Positions 2,947 to 60,100 are shown, counted from the first letter of the stretch. The stretch: 64,000 nt of DNA from Candidatus Lloydbacteria bacterium RIFCSPHIGHO2_02_FULL_50_18 (GCA_001821395.1 MHLM01000001.1:128001-192000); one strand, 5' to 3'. The notes: generated by a model not told the origin, from the sequence alone. Program-made: numbers and translations.

Positions 2947-3146
2947 CTCGCACTCTGCCTTTCGAAGTGCTGGATGACTCGGTCGCGGATAATTCCTTGT
3001 GAGACGTTGTAAGGATATTCTCACACCCCCTTCACCTCTTGTGCTGATGGGAGTCGGTCAGTAAATATCCCAGAGATTCTTGCTTGCTAAACACAGTGAG
3101 TTCGAGTAGTCTTTGACGCAGAACATTGTTGAGGTAAGGGGTAGTC

Positions 3147-3815
3147 ATGTTGATATATGCCGTAATTGGTACGCTTGTGGTCGCACTGCTCATCTTCTTG
3201 GCGTGCCGTTATTTTCGAAATCATTGCCTCGAGTGCAAAAAGAGGACTGACTGGGACAAATATGACTCCTGCAAAGCGTGCAATGCGGAGCACGAAGCAC
3301 GGGTGTCAAAGCACCGAGAAGAAATGACGGGGCGCATGATTGCGGTCACCCATGAAGTACTTGCACAATCAAGGGCAGAAACGGAAGAATTCGGTTTTAG
3401 TGATTACGATTTCCTCGATAGACCCTGCATGGTCTGTTCGCCTGGCCGGACTACTAGTCACCGAGAACTCTTTCGAGAGCGTGGTCTCGCGGGTAATCCG
3501 CAAGCATGCCAAGATTATTATTGGAACACTCACGTTCCCCTTGCAAGAAAGGCGCACAAAGATCGCGAGTCAAAGAAATTTTGGAAGCGCTGGCTGTACA
3601 TCCCACCGACAAAAGAGGAGGAGGAAGCGGTCAGTCGAGTGAGCTGGTGGCTAAAGAATGCACTCAGTGCGGGTCGTGACGATCTTGCCCAGCTACGCGA
3701 GTACCGGACGTATCACGAAAAGCCTGACCATTGGATGGACATGACTACCAAACAACTCATGGAGCGCCGACTCTCGCGCGCAAAGAAGGCACTAGATTTA
3801 AATATTGATCGGTAA
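3147..3815 (+). CDS. hypothetical protein with N-terminal TM helix and CxxC-x14-CxxC zinc-ribbon-like motif
   Basis: 222-aa ORF; MLIYAVIGTLVVALLIFLACRYF is a TM helix, followed by CLECKKRTDWDKYDSCKACN. No family recognised. Confidence 0.5.
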   Translation: MLIYAVIGTLVVALLIFLACRYFRNHCLECKKRTDWDKYDSCKACNAEHEARVSKHREEMTGRMIAVTHEVLAQSRAETEEFGFSDYDFLDRPCMVCSPGRTTSHRELFRERGLAGNPQACQDYYWNTHVPLARKAHKDRESKKFWKRWLYIPPTKEEEEAVSRVSWWLKNALSAGRDDLAQLREYRTYHEKPDHWMDMTTKQLMERRLSRAKKALDLNIDR

Positions 3816-3866
3816 TGTTTATTTCGGGGCCATTAGCGCCCCTTTTTGTTATACAAAATATCTTAT

Positions 3867-39313: not shown

Positions 39314-39451
39314 CATGATGGAACTTTCCCAAATGGCGAACTTCTTTGTTGCGGGTCCCCAGCGACTCGGTCAACATATCGGAATATGTCTTCCTCGTCC
39401 CCTTCCCCGCGTCGCGAATTTCATCCATTTGAGTAAGTTCCACTGCAAAAT

Positions 39452-56789: not shown

Positions 56790-57134
56790 TTATGGGTTGG
56801 TATTCAATGATCCTATATCAATGGCGCTCGTTGTTGCTACGTCACTTGCTCCAACGCTCGCCACAAGCTGGTTTTGTTCAGCGGCATATTGCAACTGCCC
56901 GGTAGTTTCGCTCCATTGCGAAAGTGCGCTGTTTTTCATGTCAGCAAATATGTTGCCAACTACTTCCGTCGGCGATACTTCCTGCACGCTCTTGTCGGAT
57001 GCTCTTACCTCAGAGTTCCGCCCCTCCCACCAGACTGAAACGATCAGCACCGACAGAAGCACCGTCGTTACCACAGCAATCTGCTGGCGAACATGACGGG
57101 GTTTTGCTTTTAATGTATCTAAATAATCAAGCAT
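56790..57134 (-). CDS. hypothetical membrane-anchored protein
   Basis: Single TM (IAVVTTVLLSVLIVSVWW) with an extracytoplasmic tail. No recognisable domain. Confidence 0.35.
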   Translation of the reverse strand: MLDYLDTLKAKPRHVRQQIAVVTTVLLSVLIVSVWWEGRNSEVRASDKSVQEVSPTEVVGNIFADMKNSALSQWSETTGQLQYAAEQNQLVASVGASDVATTSAIDIGSLNTNP

Positions 57135-57142
57135 AAATATAG

Positions 57143-57811
57143 TTACGCATGGAGAAGCGGTTCAAGGACGATAACGTCCCCTTCCTTTCCTTCAAGGTCT
57201 TTCTTTTTCAATATCAATTTTTCTATTTGTACGACATCTTCCGCTCCTGCTTCTTTCAAAAATGCTTTCAGTTGCTTGTCGTTCTTATCTTCAAAATCAA
57301 CGGGAATGATAAGCTTGGCGTCGAGCATGACCGCGATCTTGCCGGCATCAGAAGGGGTCAACACATCACCTCCCGATATCGGAACAACGAGAATATCAAC
57401 TTCCCCGATACCCTCGATGGTCTCAGGCGATAGCTCTGTCCCCGCAAGCGCTCCAAGGATGCAGATCCGGATGCCTTCGAGCTCTACTGTATATATAGTA
57501 TTCAACAGACCGGCCTCTCCGACGGATTTCGGTGATAAAAAACCGGAGACGGCGACTCCGCCTATCTCATACTCCCCCGGACCGGACACAACGAACGGCA
57601 CCTTGTCGCCATGCGAAAGGTTTTCTACTCCGTTCAATTCCGGGTGATTCATCGATACCAAACCGATGCGTGCAGCAAAACGGATCGGCTTCATGCGCGA
57701 CTGTTTTCCAAAAGGATTCGCAGCAATAACAGTATCTCCTTGAGCGATCTTTATGAACTGGCCTCCATGGTACGTGATTATCATGCGGTTGAGTATAACA
57801 ATTTCATTCAA
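57143..57811 (-). CDS. MBL-fold metallo-hydrolase (UlaG-like); the start at MIITYHGG (about 57784) is possible
   Basis: ITYHGGQFIKI..., HGDKV, and Asp/His-containing beta-lactamase-fold segments. Confidence 0.55.
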   Translation of the reverse strand: MNEIVILNRMIITYHGGQFIKIAQGDTVIAANPFGKQSRMKPIRFAARIGLVSMNHPELNGVENLSHGDKVPFVVSGPGEYEIGGVAVSGFLSPKSVGEAGLLNTIYTVELEGIRICILGALAGTELSPETIEGIGEVDILVVPISGGDVLTPSDAGKIAVMLDAKLIIPVDFEDKNDKQLKAFLKEAGAEDVVQIEKLILKKKDLEGKEGDVIVLEPLLHA

Positions 57812-58389
57812 AAAGGGAAAGACAAAAACAGTTGAAAAATAGCGACATATTGTGTGTAATGCACTAGTCTAATGGGTATTGACATTATACACATATAATG
57901 CTATTACTCTAGAAGAGGTGATTGGAATTCCCACAAGGGTTGCTGGCAAAAGAAGGACGAGCATGATGCTCATCTGTGCCGTGCAAACCATCGACTGCCG
58001 CGTATGACGCGCCCCGTCCCCGACAACATGTAGGGATGCGGCCAAAGACTGCGGCGCGCGGGTTCATATCCGTCACCATTTCGTCGCCGTCGGGCGACAG
58101 CACGGACCAAGGGAGTTGCCTTCCCCTGGTCCACAACAATGAAAGGGGCAGGATGCACCACATTCGCGATCCCACCTGATCTTTCCCACCTCCCCCAAAC
58201 CGCTCGCGAACCCCATTCAATTGGTAACGCATATGAGCTTCAAAAAAAGCTGATCATCAATCAGCACTGCGCCGAGTCGACTGCATGGAAAGAGATGAGC
58301 CCCGAAAGGATAGTAAAGAGAAACGCTTCGTAAAAAGCAGATCTCCTGGCCGAGCTCCACACCAAGTGCAAAGATTCACAGCAGACAGG

Positions 58390-58423
58390 CCACGCCATAA
58401 AAACGCGTGGTCTTCTTTTATTT
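58390..58423 (+). terminator. plus-strand intrinsic terminator inside the rpsA upstream region
   Basis: ccacgcc-ataaaaa-cgcgtgg followed by tcttcttttattt. Confidence 0.5.
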
Positions 58424-58431
58424 ACCAAAAC

Positions 58432-58460
58432 TTGACAGTATTTGAGGAGATGGATAGATT
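58432..58460 (+). promoter_or_regulatory. sigma70-like promoter (TTGACA, 17-nt spacer, TAGATT)
   Basis: aaacTTGACAgtatttgaggagatggaTAGATTaagg. Lies about 515 nt upstream of the rpsA ATG. Confidence 0.5.
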
Positions 58461-58633
58461 AAGGCCTCGTGGTAAGCACTGAGCAATCAGACACAAACCT
58501 TGTTCATTCCCTTTGCTAAGGAGAGAGTATCGATGAAACGCAGTCAACAGAGTTTTATTTAAACGCCAGCCGGCCGGTGCTCGAAATAGGTTTGTCCCCA
58601 AAAGGACTCCCGTATTGAGCGCGAAAGCCCAAA

Positions 58634-58666
58634 GCCCCCACCCTAAAAGTGGGGGCCAATTTTTTA
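58634..58666 (+). terminator. plus-strand intrinsic terminator/attenuator in the rpsA leader
   Basis: gcccccaccc-taaaa-gtgggggc followed by caatttttt. Confidence 0.55.
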
Positions 58667-58975
58667 CATAGGGTACCCCTCTGTACATAGGGTACTCCTA
58701 TGTAGCAGTGACTTGCATAATTGGGACTCATTTGATAGTCTTTTGGCACAACTGAATATTAACAACACTATTGGGATTAACCCGTCATCAAGTAAGGGGG
58801 TTCCTCAAAATGGATGAAGTTCGAGACGTGGAGAAAGGGACGAGGAAGACATATTCATATATGTTGACCGAGTCACAGAGGCTCCACAACGAAGAAATTC
58901 GCCATTTTTAGAAACACTCACTGAGACGACCCCCAAGAGGAACAGTTATCTGCCCTCACGCAGATTTTTATTTTT

Positions 58976-60100
58976 ATGACTACAATAGAAGAAGATGAAG
59001 TGATCATCATTGGCGGCGAGCAAGTGCTCGACCCTGGCCACGTGATGACGAAGTATATGGCGGAGATCGTGAAGCGCCCGGAGCCGGGTGAGATTGTTGA
59101 AGGTCCCGTCATCAAAGTAGACAAGAAGGCTGTGTATATCAACATGCCTCCTTACGGCATCGGTATCATCTATGGCCGTGAGTACATGAACGCGCGCGAC
59201 CTCGTGAAGCACATGAACATCGGTGACGTCATCACCGCAAAGGTCGTTGAGAGCGAGAATGAGAATGGTTACGTCGAGCTTTCACTCAAGGAAGCACGTC
59301 AGTCGCTTATCTGGGCCGAGGCGGAAGATTACGTACGCAAGAAAACCGTACTGGACCTTATGGTAAAGGATGCGAACAAGGGCGGACTCATGCTCGACTG
59401 GCAGGGTATCTCAGGATTCCTTCCCGCATCACAACTCTCGGGAGATCATTACCCTCGCGTCACGGATGGTGACAAGGATAAGATCCTCGAGGAATTGAAG
59501 CGACTCGTTGGAGAGAAGCTTTCGGTCGTGATGATCACCGCGGTTCCAAAGGAAGGCAAACTCATCTTCTCGGAGAAGGAGCAGAATCAGAAAGAGAAGG
59601 AAGAGATCGTCGCGAAGTATCGACTCGGCTCGATTGTCGAAGGAGAGATCACCGGCATCGTCGACTTCGGTGCATTCATGAAGATTGAGGAGGGTCTCGA
59701 GGGGCTCATCCATATCTCAGAGATGGATTGGGGTCTTGTGGACGATCCACGCAAGCTCTTCAAGGTTGGTGAGCATGTGAAAGCGCAGATCATCGAGATC
59801 AAGGATAATAAGGTTTCGCTTTCCGTAAAGGTTCTAAAAGAAAACCCATGGAAAAGTGCTGAGAAGAAATATAAGAAAGGTGATGTCGTGAAAGGTGTTG
59901 TTATCAAATTCAACAAGTACGGCGCACTTGCCTCCATTGAGGAAGGTGTTGCGGGACTCGTCCATGTTTCGGAATTCGGCACAGAAGAGAAGCTTCGCGC
60001 CGCGATCGAACTTGGCAAGGTCTATCCGTTCACCATTACCCTCTTTGAGCCAAAGGACCAGCGCATGACGCTCTCGTTTACGACAGAGAAGAAGGCATAA
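58976..60100 (+). CDS. rpsA: 30S ribosomal protein S1 (four S1 domains)
   Basis: Repeated S1 OB-fold motifs (GEIVEGPVIKVD, GDVITAKVVES, GSIVEGEITGIVDFGAFMKI, GDVVKGVVIKFNKYGALASI). 374 aa. Confidence 0.85.
   Translation: MTTIEEDEVIIIGGEQVLDPGHVMTKYMAEIVKRPEPGEIVEGPVIKVDKKAVYINMPPYGIGIIYGREYMNARDLVKHMNIGDVITAKVVESENENGYVELSLKEARQSLIWAEAEDYVRKKTVLDLMVKDANKGGLMLDWQGISGFLPASQLSGDHYPRVTDGDKDKILEELKRLVGEKLSVVMITAVPKEGKLIFSEKEQNQKEKEEIVAKYRLGSIVEGEITGIVDFGAFMKIEEGLEGLIHISEMDWGLVDDPRKLFKVGEHVKAQIIEIKDNKVSLSVKVLKENPWKSAEKKYKKGDVVKGVVIKFNKYGALASIEEGVAGLVHVSEFGTEEKLRAAIELGKVYPFTITLFEPKDQRMTLSFTTEKKA

What the first reader, a model, noticed from the sequence alone, without database searches (positions are those of the whole stretch)
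57812..58975. 1.1-kb ORF-poor, partly GC-rich region upstream of rpsA with its own promoter and two plus-strand terminators: candidate ncRNA(s)
Between the divergent MBL-hydrolase gene and rpsA there is no credible ORF. The only long one, 57909-58232 minus, translates to a W/C/R-rich implausible protein.

Segment 57930-58250 is conspicuously GC-rich relative to the rest of the window. A hairpin plus T-run terminator at 58390-58423 closes it, implying a plus-strand transcript of up to about 500 nt.

Then comes a TTGACA-17-TAGATT promoter at 58432-58460, followed by a second strong terminator at 58634-58666. This delimits a potential sRNA of about 200 nt, or an attenuated leader, still 300 nt before the rpsA ATG.

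I looked for RNase P (P4 GGAAAGTCCGG / AGAACCCGG), SRP (GGAAGCAGCC) and tmRNA ends and found none.
Basis: seen in the sequence. Interest (0 to 1): 0.5.

Follow-up and report, generated by a model that had tools for sequence, protein, structure and literature searches.

The report
Two unclassified RNA genes upstream of rpsA
The gap before the ribosomal protein S1 gene of this uncultured Lloydbacteria (CPR) bacterium holds two self-contained RNA genes, about 510 and 200 bases long, that match no known RNA family. Both carry ribosome-binding-site-like tiny reading frames, and their function is unknown.

Summary
The region 57812-58975 has no credible protein gene. It contains two plus-strand units, each with its own promoter and terminator, followed by the rpsA promoter and leader.

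Unit A (RNA about 57914-58423) is real and under selection:
- It is 84-88% identical to its counterpart in the nearest relative, as conserved as rpsA itself, while its flanks are only 41-45% identical.
- All eight indels are not multiples of three, and substitutions show no codon periodicity.
- Alignment folding gives z = -4.6.
- A three-tier hairpin (58202-58238) recurs, with compensatory changes, in 8 Lloydbacteria sequences. In every one the unit sits at this locus.

Unit B (about 58467-58666) has no close homologue. It does share a 14-base composite motif (GGAG...TATCG.TGAAA) and an architecture with units upstream of rpsA in about 15 relatives. That architecture is a Shine-Dalgarno (SD) site, a start codon, an 8-52 codon reading frame, a GC palindrome and a strong terminator.

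Rfam 15 and ARAGORN find nothing. The units are missing from some Lloydbacteria, so they are accessory rather than RNase P, tmRNA or 6S RNA.

Best reading: these are lineage-specific structured RNAs that engage ribosomes through tiny reading frames. The mechanism is inferred, not shown.

The rpsA leader also carries an inserted ~100-base hairpin repeat.

The parts
57879..57907 (+). Promoter of unit A. It reads -35 TTGACA (57879-57884), a 17-nt spacer ending in TGC (extended -10), and -10 TATTAC (57902-57907).
   Evidence: Read from the sequence. TTGACA-N14-TGC-TAnnnT recurs, with variable spacer sequence, at about 14 homologous units. The promoter block is 69% identical to L001, while the flank upstream is 45%.
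57914..58423 (+). Unit A RNA, about 510 nt, GC-rich and structured. The 5' end is inferred from the promoter.
   Evidence: It is 84.3% identical to L001 (88% ungapped), against rpsA 83.3%, the MBL-fold hydrolase gene 75.8% and gyrA 77.1%. All indels are non-3n and there is no codon periodicity. Single-sequence folding gives z -3.73. Alignment folding gives z -4.57. RNAalifold predicts 134 pairs with none broken.
57917..58077 (+). 5' domain of A. It is closed by the predicted helix GGUGAUUGGA (57917-57926) with UCCGUCACC (58069-58077).
   Evidence: RNAalifold on window+L001. This is a prediction only. The domain is not conserved outside window and L001.
58083..58098 (+). Hairpin H1: GUCGCC-gucg-GGCGAC.
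   Evidence: Predicted. The equivalent hairpin is AGUCGC-cauu-GCGACU in L016 and L104 and GUCGCC-agcuc-GGCGAC in L007.
58142..58179 (+). Internal RBS-like module of A. AAAGGGG is followed after 4 nt by ATG (58153) and an 8-codon frame MHHIRDPT with stop TGA at 58177-58179. The frame overlaps hairpin H2, GAUC (58168-58171) with GAUC (58178-58181).
   Evidence: An AAAGGAG-like tract plus an ATG 3-11 nt downstream lies upstream of H3 in all 8 H3-bearing units, and also in L007, which lacks H3. In L016 and L104 the shared bases GCGAUCC are read in a different frame. This argues against a conserved peptide.
58202..58238 (+). Hairpin H3, the signature of the A family. It has an outer stem GCUC/GAGC, a middle stem GCG/CGC, an inner stem CCA/UGG and a loop UUCAAU.
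   Evidence: The MFE structure matches this model. A covariance model recovers it in 8 distinct sequences at E of 1e-10 to 1e-19 and finds no other hit below E 0.01 in 35 sources. 91% of cells are paired and 3 pairs change on both sides; slid controls give 26-44%. The manual register shows UA to CG, CG to UA and AU to GC changes.
58249..58265 (+). Hairpin H4, GCUGAU-cauca-AUCAGC, preceded by a run of seven A.
   Evidence: A hairpin of different sequence sits at the same place in L013, L122, L124, L127, L016 and L104. On the minus strand it reads as a terminator-like site.
58387..58423 (+). Intrinsic terminator of unit A.
   Evidence: -14.3 kcal/mol, z -4.45. It is conserved in L001. Sequence similarity to L001 ends here: the downstream flank is 41% identical.
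58432..58460 (+). Promoter of unit B: TTGACA-17-TAGATT.
   Evidence: Best promoter-like match in the scan, 10 of 12.
58467..58666 (+). Unit B RNA, about 200 nt. The 5' end is inferred from the promoter.
   Evidence: Folding z -2.55. No close homologue exists in any locus fetched. Family assignment rests on the composite motif and the architecture.
58493..58595 (+). Predicted long-range helix ACAAACCUUGUUC (58493-58505) with GAAAUAGGUUUGU (58583-58595). It encloses the RBS, the tiny frame and the palindrome.
   Evidence: Inverted repeat I2, 85% complementary, and part of the MFE structure. The mean unpaired probability of the RBS region is 0.21. Conservation could not be tested.
58518..58562 (+). 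RBS module of B. AAGGAG (58518-58523) is followed after 9 nt by ATG (58533) and the 9-codon frame MKRSQQSFI with stop TAA at 58560-58562.
   Evidence: The motif GGAG-N3-8-TATCG-N0-1-TGAAA occurs once in the window, against 0 expected. Among 140 loci it occurs in only 7, at positions inside the rpsA-upstream units described for those loci. An SD+start module is present in 22 of 23 units, against about 0.07-0.65 per unit in shuffles.
58570..58577 (+). GC palindrome CCGGCCGG, 7 nt after the stop codon.
   Evidence: A GCCGGC-type palindrome lies 2-19 nt after the stop of the first frame in most units, whatever the frame length (8-52 codons). In L136 it overlaps the end of the frame.
58634..58666 (+). 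Intrinsic terminator of unit B.
   Evidence: -16.9 kcal/mol. CCCCC...GGGGG terminators close most B-type units.
58665..58704 (.). Tandem and inverted 19-20-nt repeat TACATAGGGTAC...
   Evidence: D1, I1. Related ACATAGG palindromes lie next to units in L013, L001, L003 and L004.
58713..58741 (+). Probable rpsA promoter TTGCAT-17-TAGTCT. An alternative is TTGATA-17-AATATT at 58732-58760.
   Evidence: cTTGCaA-N17-TAGtCT recurs with a variable spacer in 16 or more relatives, including those without any unit. The alternative comes from the scan. The transcription start was not mapped.
58748..58975 (+). rpsA leader. Its conserved 5' part is ACAACUGAAUAUUA...GGGAUUAACCCG, and it has no SD.
   Evidence: These blocks are conserved across Lloydbacteria. 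Folding z -4.58.
58807..58907 (+). Inserted hairpin-forming repeat of about 100 nt inside the rpsA leader.
   Evidence: It is absent from the leaders of L001-L005. A second copy lies at 39331-39430 on the minus strand (85% identical) and a third at L007:7556-7659. Energy -37.5 kcal/mol, z -5.14. 6 of 36 pairs are compensatory.
58948..58975 (+). Hairpin AUCUGC-ccucac-GCAGAU plus a U-rich run, ending at the rpsA ATG.
   Evidence: z -3.19. It is conserved, with CUGC/GCAG changing to CCGC/GCGG in L136 and L017.

Best explanation
**What is there.** The region holds two tandem RNA genes that do not encode a protein of ordinary size. Each is transcribed on its own from a promoter and ended by a Rho-independent terminator. 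They are followed by the rpsA gene's own promoter and leader.

**Unit A.** This ~510-nt RNA belongs to a structured RNA family restricted to Candidatus Lloydbacteria. Eight distinct members were found, all between the MBL-fold hydrolase gene and rpsA. Its conserved core is:
- hairpin H1;
- an SD-like tract plus ATG with a 6-15 codon frame running over a small hairpin;
- the three-tier hairpin H3;
- hairpin H4;
- a closed 3' domain and the terminator.

**Unit B.** This ~200-nt RNA belongs to a looser set of RNAs upstream of rpsA. They share a CU/CA-rich leader, a strong SD, an ATG or GTG start, a first frame of variable length and sequence (8-52 codons), a GC palindrome near the stop codon, and a strong terminator.

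**Proposed mechanism (inferred, not shown).**
- The conserved parts are the ribosome-loading modules and the helices they overlap, not the peptides.
- Ribosomes are therefore proposed to load on the nascent RNA and translate the tiny frame. This would transiently melt the adjacent helix (H2 in A, the palindrome and enclosing helix in B) and decide which fold the finished RNA adopts.
- In the finished RNA the SD tends to be paired.
- The RNAs would thus report or depend on translation capacity. They would act in trans, or on local rpsA expression.
- The units are accessory and sit at an insertion-prone site.
For: **Independent transcription units**
- Promoters and terminators were found by scan and folding.
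- The promoter hexamers are conserved while spacers vary, at about 14 homologous units.

**Selection on A as RNA**
- A is 84-88% identical to L001, equal to or above the neighbouring genes (rpsA 83%, MBL 76%, gyrA 77%). Its flanks are 41-45% identical.
- All 8 indels are non-3n and substitutions show no codon periodicity.
- Indels coincide with whole hairpins: the 14-nt insertion in L001 forms UGCC...GGCA.
- Alignment folding z on the forward strand is -4.6, -5.7 and -4.3 for three independent pairs. The reverse strand gives -4.2, -3.6 and -2.6.
- RNAalifold finds 11 of 96 pairs compensatory in L016/L104 and 3 of 134 in window/L001, with none broken in window/L001.
- H3 is supported by covariation and by specific covariance-model hits.

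**Family and linkage**
- H3-bearing units were found only at this locus, in a genome scan, a metagenome scan and look-ups of S1 homologues.

**RBS modules**
- They are present in 22 of 23 units, against about 7-65% per unit in shuffles.
- The composite motif is unique in the window and, among the loci, occurs only in 7 loci, at positions inside their rpsA-upstream units.
- Frame length and sequence vary while the SD, the start and the palindrome stay.
- The same bases are read in different frames in different lineages.
- L016 and L104 keep a 10-codon frame although the distal codons are unalike.

**Not a known RNA**
- Rfam 15 finds nothing, at gathering threshold or at E up to 10, in the window or in 27 relatives' loci.
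- ARAGORN finds nothing.
Against: - No expression data exist. Transcription, RNA ends and translation of the tiny frames are all unverified.
- Unit B has no close homologue, so its structure cannot be tested by covariation.
- A profile HMM of the B-type RBS module did not recover the window's copy.
- The SD-to-ATG spacing of the internal module of A is short, 3-5 nt in most members. This is poor for initiation and could mean it is an RNA motif rather than an RBS.
- The A family is small: 8 sequences from about 4-5 lineages. The covariation statistics are therefore modest, with 12 of 500 shuffles reaching the observed score.
- L124 has an S1 protein 95% identical, yet its A unit is barely alignable outside the core. 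This points to fast turnover or cassette exchange.
- The units are absent from L011, L130, L134/135 and L139/140. Whatever they do is dispensable.
- No target for the H3 loop was found in the window.
Confidence: 0.6

Rival explanations
1. **Cis-acting leaders of rpsA.** Under this reading the units are upstream parts of a long rpsA leader with several promoters. Translation of the tiny frames, acting like leader peptides, would set read-through of the two terminators and so tune S1 synthesis to translation capacity.
For: - The units always lie upstream of rpsA and point the same way.
- B-type units stay attached to rpsA when the upstream gene differs: a membrane-protein gene (TerC family by gene call in the related locus L136) in L003 and L004, TerC in L136, and a YgjP-like gene in L129.
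- A tiny frame followed by a terminator is the layout of classical attenuators.
- The U-tract of terminator B is separated from its stem by CAA, so termination may leak.
Against: - A promoter with conserved hexamers and a fixed 17-nt spacing lies between the units and rpsA in every relative. It alone serves rpsA in genomes without units.
- By inspection, no sequence complementary to the 5' half of the terminator stem lies upstream that could form an antiterminator.
- The tiny frame ends about 70 nt before terminator B in the window. In relatives the distance is 100-700 nt, too variable for direct ribosome-terminator interplay.
- Both terminators are strong hairpins.
Confidence: 0.15
2. **Accessory cassettes at an insertion hot spot.** The units would be small selfish or accessory genes, for example relatives of type I toxin mRNAs or small-peptide genes. 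Their linkage to rpsA would reflect the insertion site, not function. In this genome the reading frames have shrunk to remnants.
For: - The MBL-rpsA gap ranges from 86 to 2184 nt across 67 loci and holds unrelated ORFs.
- L138 and L139 have identical S1 proteins but differ by two inserted genes.
- Units are present or absent among close relatives, and turnover is fast.
- Palindromic repeats flank the units.
- The longest first frames have hydrophobic Gly/Ala-rich tails: 52 aa in L127 and 45 aa in L012.
- The SD is often paired in the full-length fold, and the pyrimidine tails pair with the SD in RNAalifold. This is reminiscent of fold-back inhibition in hok mRNA (my own knowledge).
Against: - No antisense promoter was found.
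- Most first frames are 8-17 codons long and hydrophilic.
- The 52-aa ORF has no homologue among 5.8 billion proteins and no Pfam match.
- Unit A is as conserved as rpsA between the window and L001. That is not expected of a decaying remnant.
- No copies were found in viral contigs.
Confidence: 0.15
3. **Remnant of a decayed protein-coding gene.** This is the first reader's own refutation scenario.
For: GC-rich DNA gives long spurious ORFs on both strands: 107 aa here and 120-128 aa in L001.
Against: - No relative has an intact conserved gene here.
- There are no Pfam hits.
- Indels are non-3n, substitutions show no periodicity, and conservation is high.
- The promoter and terminator exactly bracket the conserved block.
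Confidence: 0.03
4. **A highly divergent copy of a housekeeping RNA.** Candidates are RNase P RNA, tmRNA, 6S RNA and SRP RNA, missed because CPR sequences are unusual.
For: The size and GC-richness of A are in the range of RNase P RNA or tmRNA. Only tRNAs were detected in the 64-kb window.
Against: - There is no Rfam match even at E up to 10 on either strand.
- ARAGORN finds no tmRNA.
- The units are absent from several Lloydbacteria with an otherwise identical locus.
- The sequence outside the core turns over quickly.
Confidence: 0.02

Closest known systems
Dual-function sRNAs (SgrS/SgrT, RNAIII/delta-haemolysin, SR1/SR1P)
   Same: Each is a self-contained transcript with its own promoter and terminator. 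Each combines a structured RNA body with a small reading frame that has its own SD.
   Different: In those RNAs the peptide is conserved and functional. Here peptide length and sequence are free (8-52 codons, and different frames on the same bases), and only the initiation module is kept. No base-pairing target is known. This comparison is from my own knowledge.
Leader-peptide attenuators (trpL, thrL, pyrL; ermCL-type translation attenuation)
   Same: They have a very short frame with a good RBS placed just upstream of stable RNA structure and an intrinsic terminator. The peptide sequence matters less than the ribosome's position.
   Different: No alternative antiterminator pairing is evident. 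The distance to the terminator is variable and long. The downstream gene has its own conserved promoter, and the units are dispensable. The weak Rfam hit to Thr_leader (E = 2) covers only the terminator.
hok/sok-type type I toxin mRNAs
   Same: They are highly structured, GC-rich transcripts of 200-500 nt with the SD sequestered in the full-length fold, possible pairing of the 3' tail to the SD, patchy distribution and fast turnover.
   Different: The window has no hydrophobic toxin frame, no antisense RNA promoter was found, and there is a single copy at one locus.
Large structured bacterial ncRNAs found by comparative genomics (OLE, GOLLD, ROOL, raiA, HEARO)
   Same: They are several hundred nucleotides long, richer in GC than their surroundings, multi-helix with covarying stems, and were of unknown function when discovered.
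   Different: None of their Rfam models matches. The A family is far narrower (one candidate order-level lineage, 8 sequences), evolves faster, and contains RBS-like modules.
tmRNA
   Same: It is a structured RNA of a few hundred nucleotides with an internal short reading frame of about 10 codons. H3 has a loop (UUCAAU) that resembles a T-loop.
   Different: tmRNA has no SD or start codon, has a tRNA-like acceptor end, and its tag ends in hydrophobic residues. ARAGORN and Rfam find none here.
Autoregulated rpsA leader of E. coli
   Same: This applies to the third part, 58748-58975. It is a long structured leader without an SD and with U-rich single-stranded RNA just before the ATG.
   Different: There is no sequence similarity. 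Here a conserved terminator-like hairpin abuts the start codon, and a mobile hairpin repeat is inserted. Binding by S1 is untested.

Membership tests
Any Rfam 15 family (including RNase P, tmRNA, SRP, 6S, T-box, OLE, GOLLD, ROOL, raiA, HEARO) | The covariance-model score reaches the family's gathering threshold. | tested here: not met
   Nothing reaches threshold in 57700-59100. At E up to 10 there are only two matches (COG2827 at 18.8 bits, Thr_leader at 18 bits), and both are driven by terminator B. Nothing was found in the homologous regions of 27 relatives' loci.
tmRNA | A tRNA-like domain plus a tag reading frame, as detected by ARAGORN. | tested here: not met
   0 genes in 57000-59500.
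Housekeeping RNA (essential, universal within the lineage) | Present in every genome of the lineage. | tested here: not met
   L011, L130, L134/135 and L139/140 have only the rpsA promoter and leader in a gap of about 165-350 nt.
Lloydbacteria A-type RNA (family defined here) | The three-tier hairpin H3 (outer stem / GCG:CGC / CCR:YGG), detected by covariance model R1. | tested here: met
   The window scores 61.7 bits, E 5e-19, and 7 other distinct sequences score E 1e-10 to 1e-18. The model was built from these same sequences, so this shows specificity only: there is no other hit below E 0.01 in 299 kb.
Lloydbacteria A-type RNA (family defined here) | A shared order of modules (H1, SD-like+ATG frame over H2, H3, H4, closed 3' domain, terminator) and a shared position between the MBL gene and rpsA. 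| tested here: met
   The position is given.
Lloydbacteria B-type RNA (set defined here) | The composite motif GGAG-N3-8-TATCG-N0-1-TGAAA downstream of a promoter and upstream of the rpsA promoter. | tested here: met
   One match in the window at 58520-58538, against 0 in 100 shuffles. Among 140 loci only 7 match, at positions inside their rpsA-upstream units.
Lloydbacteria B-type RNA (set defined here) | Statistically significant sequence homology of the whole unit. | tested here: not met
   BLASTN and nhmmer find no homologue of 58424-58735. The module HMM does not recover it. It does not align with the L001 unit.
Leader-peptide transcription attenuator | Mutually exclusive antiterminator and terminator pairings coupled to the leader frame. 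| tested here: not met
   Inspection finds no upstream segment complementary to the 5' half of the terminator stem. The frame ends about 70 nt before the stem.
Leader-peptide transcription attenuator | The regulated gene depends on read-through, with no promoter of its own downstream of the terminator. | tested here: not met
   The conserved TTGCaA-N17-TAGtCT promoter lies at 58713-58741 and in all relatives.
Type I toxin-antitoxin | A hydrophobic toxin peptide of about 20-60 aa. | tested here: not met
   The window's frames are MKRSQQSFI and MHHIRDPT. Only L127, L012 and L010 have longer, partly hydrophobic frames.
Type I toxin-antitoxin | An antisense or divergent antitoxin RNA with its own promoter. 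| tested here: not met
   The scan found no promoter-like site on the minus strand within 57812-58975. The scan is consensus-based, so weak promoters could be missed.
Dual-function sRNA | The small frame is translated and the RNA also acts by base pairing. | not testable with these tools
   This needs ribosome profiling and target identification. A search for complements of the H3 loop in the window found none.
Chromosomal replication origin | A cluster of DnaA boxes and a minimum in cumulative GC skew. | tested here: not met
   There is one 1-mismatch box in the region, and the 16 in the whole window do not exceed chance. The skew shows no turning point at window scale.
Miniature hairpin repeat (REP/MITE-like), for 58807-58907 only | Several dispersed copies that form a long hairpin, with presence or absence varying at a given site. 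| tested here: met
   Three copies were found. The element is absent from the leaders of L001-L005. Hairpin z -5.1, with compensatory changes. No terminal repeats or target-site duplications were looked for.

The most novel reading that the evidence does not exclude
The A-type and B-type units may be a previously undescribed class of ribosome-engaging structured RNA in CPR bacteria. In this reading they are hundreds of nucleotides long and built around strong initiation modules with disposable tiny reading frames. Co-transcriptional translation of those frames would set the RNA's final fold. The RNAs would thereby act as sensors or buffers of translation capacity, genetically tied to the S1 gene. 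In a reduced genome with few protein regulators, this would be an RNA-only regulatory device.
Probability: 0.2. Interest if true: 0.75.

Novelty: new variant of a known kind. Interest (0 to 1): 0.55.

Why it matters
- **Little is known about RNA genes in CPR bacteria.** My two full-text searches found nothing on regulatory or structural RNAs at this locus in CPR/Patescibacteria bacteria beyond rRNA and tRNA. Their genomes are small and compact, so a 1.1-kb noncoding stretch that is as conserved as its neighbouring genes is unlikely to be idle.
- **It adds a candidate RNA family that current annotation misses.** The region provides a large structured RNA family absent from Rfam, with a usable signature (H3 and the composite RBS motif) for finding more members.
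- **It suggests an unusual design.** What seems to be selected is the loading of a ribosome rather than the peptide made. If confirmed, this would be a compact way to couple RNA folding to translation status next to the S1 gene.
- **It marks a hot spot.** The rpsA upstream region appears to be a site of cassette gain and loss in this lineage.

Tried and rejected
- **Rfam** at gathering and E-value thresholds, on the window and on 27 relatives' loci, found nothing relevant.
- **ARAGORN** found no tRNA or tmRNA in the region.
- **Pfam and NCBIfam** on all ORFs of 46 aa or more in the region, and on the longer first frames of relatives, gave nothing convincing. The 52-aa ORF of L127 has no homologue in the 5.8-billion protein set.
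- **Replication origin** was rejected.
- **Metagenome scan with the H3 loop motif** gave 43 hits, of which only 5 are true homologues representing 2 new sequences. The rest are chance matches in unrelated contexts.
- **Viral contigs** gave 4 chance matches and no homologue. The scan with the composite B motif failed on the server.
- **A loose structural descriptor for H3** found no extra members and many false hits. Covariance model R1 also found no extra members.
- **Pairing of the H3 loop with the conserved rpsA leader motif ACAACUGAAU** was considered. It gives 8 of 9 pairs in the window and 9 of 9 in L013, but the pairing is poor in L122, and the leader motif is conserved in genomes without H3. 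It was rejected as unsupported (sequence inspection).
- **A GNRA hairpin around the B start codon (UCGU-GAAA-ACGA)** fits L104, L129 and L008, but not the window, L006 or L016. The register is inconsistent, so it was not adopted.
- **CsrB-like GGA-motif sponge:** a hand count of GGA triplets in unit A (about 8) is close to the roughly 8.6 expected from its base composition, a rough estimate with no tool run, so this idea was dropped.
- **T-box:** the resemblance of UGGUAACGCG to the T-box sequence was noted, but the T-box model does not match.
- **The small unit of L001 (3690-3810) as a truncated B** does not align.
- **Profile HMM of the B-type RBS module** was too weak to find the window's copy.
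Full report
**Source and setting**

- The S1 protein encoded at 58976-60100 is identical to one from Candidatus Lloydbacteria bacterium RIFCSPHIGHO2_01_FULL (P0002).
- The nearest other genomes are Parcubacteria GW2011_GWA2_47_7 (L001, S1 93% identical) and several Lloydbacteria metagenome-assembled genomes.
- The gene order is gyrA, a small hypothetical gene and an MBL-fold hydrolase gene, all on the minus strand, then a gap, then rpsA on the plus strand. This order is kept across 67 of 80 Paceibacteria loci.
- The gap ranges from 86 to 2184 nt. The short state is common, and the long gaps are lineage-specific additions.

**Check of the observation**

- The ORFs in 57812-58975 are short and have no convincing Pfam match.
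- GC in 57930-58250 is 0.579, in the top 0.3% of same-sized windows.
- The first terminator is a 9-bp stem at 58387-58413 followed by a U-rich tail: -14.3 kcal/mol, z -4.45.
- The promoter at 58432-58460 is the best consensus match in the region. The terminator at 58634-58666 has 7 GC pairs.
- Terminator-like sites number 8, against 2.7 ± 1.6 in shuffles. Promoter-like sites do not exceed chance.
- The promoters are therefore accepted on comparative grounds, not on the scan.

**Unit A (57879-58423)**

- *Extent of conservation.* Against L001, conservation starts at a TTGACA box at 57879 and ends at the terminator tail. Identity is 45% upstream, 69% over the promoter, 84% (88% ungapped) over the RNA and 41% downstream.
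- *Comparison with neighbours.* The RNA block is as conserved at the nucleotide level as rpsA (83.3%). It is more conserved than the MBL gene (75.8%) or gyrA (77.1%).
- *Not coding.* The eight indels are 1, 1, 1, 2, 1, 4, 14 and 1 nt, and the 60 substitutions fall 24/17/19 by codon position. This excludes a conserved coding frame.
- *Promoter.* It reads TTGACA, then 17 nt ending in TGC, then TATTAC. The same TTGACA-N14-TGC-TAnnnT layout, with unrelated spacer sequences, heads the homologous units of about 14 relatives.
- *Folding.* The single sequence gives z -3.73 on the plus strand and -2.12 on the minus strand. Column-shuffled alignment folding gives -4.6, -5.7 and -4.3 on the plus strand for three independent sequence pairs. 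The minus strand gives -4.2, -3.6 and -2.6.

**The A family**

- A nearly invariant block, GCGAACCCCATTCAATTGGTAACGC, led to homologues in L016 and L013.
- A metagenome scan then added L104 and L122. Look-ups of contigs encoding close S1 homologues added L124 and L127.
- In all eight, the unit lies between the MBL gene and rpsA, on the rpsA strand.
- The block forms a three-tier hairpin, H3, at 58202-58238. The outer stem varies as GCUC/GAGC, AGCCU/GGGCU, GUCCU/AGGAC and CCCU/AGGG. The middle stem GCG/CGC is invariant. The inner stem is CCA/UGG, becoming CCG/CGG in L127.
- On a model-based alignment 91% of cells pair and three pairs change on both sides. Slid controls give 26-44% pairing, and 12 of 500 shuffles reach the covariation score.
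- Other modules recur in the same order but with different sequences: H1, a small hairpin H2 (GAUC/GAUC), hairpin H2b in some lineages (GUCGU/ACGAC, GCCGU/ACGGC, ACCGU/ACGGU), H4, and a CUGC...GCAG stem closing the 3' domain.
- Indels tend to be whole hairpins. An example is the 14-nt insertion in L001.
- L007 has an A-like unit with H1 and the internal module but no H3.
- L013 and L122 are about 900 nt long and contain an internal duplication.

**Tiny reading frames**

- *In the A-type units.* All eight H3-bearing units, and L007, carry an AAAGGAG-like tract and an ATG 3-11 nt downstream, placed 60-100 nt before H3. A frame of 6-15 codons follows and ends at or just after H2. In the window this is 58142-58179, encoding MHHIRDPT.
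- *Evidence on peptide conservation in A is mixed.* The window, L124 and L007 share I-R-(D/S) with third-position changes. L016 and L104 read the same conserved bases GCGAUCC in another frame. What is common is therefore a frame crossing H2, not a peptide.
- *The short SD-to-ATG spacing* (3-5 nt in most) leaves open that this is an RNA motif rather than an RBS.
- *In the B-type units.* A second type of module starts the B-type units and the longer units of L016, L104 and L127, which combine both features. It has a CU-rich then CA-rich stretch, AAGGAG(G), 6-12 nt, then ATG or GTG (usually followed by AAA). A first frame of 8-52 codons follows, then a GCCGGC-type palindrome 2-19 nt after the stop; in L136 the palindrome overlaps the end of the frame.
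- *The peptides are unrelated in sequence and length.* Their T/N/Q/S/K-rich make-up follows from an A/C-rich, G-poor stretch of RNA. The 52-aa frame of L127 has no homologue anywhere.
- *L016 and L104* keep exactly ten codons although the last five are unalike.
- *Enrichment.* SD+start modules occur in 22 of 23 units, against 7-65% per unit in shuffles.

**Unit B in the window (58432-58666)**

- No fetched locus has a close homologue, and a short profile HMM fails to pick it up.
- It does contain the composite motif GGAG-N3-8-TATCG-N0-1-TGAAA. This occurs once in the 64-kb window, with none in 100 shuffles. Among 140 loci it occurs in 7, at positions that fall inside the rpsA-upstream units described for those loci.
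- B also has the full B-type layout, including CCGGCCGG 7 nt after the stop and a CCCCC/GGGGG terminator.
- A 13-nt helix (58493-58505 with 58583-58595) encloses the RBS, the frame and the palindrome.
- The mean unpaired probability of the RBS region is 0.21. In the finished RNA the SD is therefore predicted to be largely hidden.
- Across units the RBS is no more exposed than the rest of the RNA.
- In two independent alignments RNAalifold pairs the purine tract with the C-interrupted U-tail after the terminator. This suggests, but does not show, that initiation is possible mainly on the nascent chain.

**The rest of the region**

- 58665-58704 is a tandem and inverted 19-nt repeat. Similar palindromes border units in relatives.
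- 58713-58741 is the likely rpsA promoter, TTGCAT-17-TAGTCT. It is supported by the same hexamers at fixed spacing in all relatives, including those with no unit. The scan prefers an overlapping TTGATA-17-AATATT, and the start site is unmapped.
- The leader begins with the conserved ACAACUGAAUAUUA...GGGAUUAACCCG.
- It ends with a hairpin plus U-run abutting the ATG, with no SD. That hairpin covaries, CUGC/GCAG becoming CCGC/GCGG in L136 and L017.
- Between them, 58807-58907 is an insertion absent from the closest relatives' leaders. It is a ~100-nt hairpin repeat with a second copy at 39331-39430 on the minus strand (between infB and rbfA) and a third in L007. Its energy is -37.5 kcal/mol, z -5.1, and 6 of 36 pairs are compensatory.

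**Distribution**

- Several Lloydbacteria (L011, L130, L134/135, L139/140) have only the promoter and leader in the gap.
- L138 and L139 encode the same S1 protein but differ by two inserted genes.
- L124, whose S1 is 95% identical, has an A unit that aligns with the window's only around the internal module and H3. L001, at 93%, has a near-identical A.
- B-type units remain next to rpsA when the upstream gene differs. In L003 and L004 it is a membrane-protein gene, in L136 it is TerC, and in L129 it is a YgjP-like gene.
- The units are thus accessory and exchangeable, but anchored to rpsA.

**Interpretation**

- *Shown.* There are two cassettes, each with a promoter and a terminator. Unit A is under purifying selection that is not protein-coding, and it belongs to a small family with a covarying signature hairpin. 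RBS-like modules are a conserved and enriched feature. No known family matches.
- *Inferred.* I infer that the RNAs are made as discrete transcripts and that ribosomes initiate on the modules. I also infer that translation of the disposable frames remodels adjacent helices, and that this relates to S1 or translation status.
- *Confidence.* I give 0.6 to the core reading: lineage-specific structured RNAs carrying ribosome-loading tiny frames. I give about half of that to the specific remodelling mechanism.
- *Rivals.* These are a cis-acting rpsA leader (0.15), hot-spot accessory cassettes related to toxin or small-peptide genes (0.15), a decayed gene (0.03) and a divergent housekeeping RNA (0.02).

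**Novelty**

- Nothing in Rfam 15 matches. Two full-text literature searches returned nothing on RNAs at this locus in CPR bacteria. Absence from that library is weak evidence.
- The kind of object is familiar: a bacterial structured or dual-function RNA.
- The particular design and family are new, hence "new variant of a known kind".

Noticed in passing
window 58807-58907 (+), window 39331-39430 (-), L007:7556-7659: A hairpin-forming repeat of about 100 nt. One copy is inserted in the rpsA leader and is absent from the closest relatives' leaders. A second lies between infB and rbfA on the opposite strand, and a third is in another genome. Compensatory changes keep the hairpin. A 33-aa ORF in the first copy is not kept in the third.
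   Followed up: partly
window 58665-58704; L013:3268-3340 and 3660-3720; L001:~3820-3850; L003:~3470-3500: Tandem and inverted TACATAGGGTAC-type repeats sit right after terminator B. Related ACATAGG palindromes flank unit B on both sides in L013 and adjoin units in other relatives. They could be insulators, protein-binding sites or recombination sites.
   Followed up: partly
window 58948-58975 and the last 40 nt before rpsA in about 25 loci: rpsA has no Shine-Dalgarno sequence. Instead a conserved, covarying hairpin plus a U-rich run that resembles a terminator ends exactly at the ATG. A CCCY...RGGG mini-hairpin lies about 40 nt upstream. This may be an S1 autoregulation or attenuation site.
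   Followed up: partly
L138 versus L139/L140; gaps listed: Contigs encoding an identical S1 protein differ by two genes (140 aa plus a GNAT acetyltransferase) inserted between the MBL gene and rpsA. Across Paceibacteria the gap holds unrelated small ORFs. The site is an insertion hot spot.
   Followed up: partly
L007:~3380-3500, L008:~3620-3650, L009:~600-650, L011:~3735-3775, L127:~2795-2820: Repeated AAGGACAT-like motifs lie upstream of the rpsA promoter in several relatives, and L007 and L127 share the palindrome GTCAAGGTTTAACCTTGAC. These may be operator sites. They are not present in the window.
   Followed up: no
L104:1540-1860; L012:~3130-3790; L014:~3100-3740; L122:4150-4525; L077:1449-2599: Other small units with their own promoter and terminator occupy the same gap in relatives. 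They encode orphan proteins of 35-190 aa, for example a basic 60-aa protein in L104, a 74-aa membrane protein in L122, and Ala/Gly-rich peptides in L077 and L012 that share an N-terminal (Q/N)-x-A/G-P-P motif.
   Followed up: no
Terminator tails of the units, e.g. window 58413-58423; L001, L003, L012, L013, L124: Many unit terminators have U-tracts interrupted by C (CUUCUUUU). These are complementary to the AAAGGAG tracts, and RNAalifold pairs the two in independent alignments. This may be a fold-back that hides the SD in the full-length RNA.
   Followed up: no
window 58976-60100: The "rpsA" product is a 374-aa, four-domain S1 homologue. It scores below the curated cut-offs of all NCBIfam S1 equivalogs; the best fit is the 391-aa Firmicute-type model (209.6 bits against a cut-off of 368). 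Its role as a true ribosomal S1 is not certain.
   Followed up: partly
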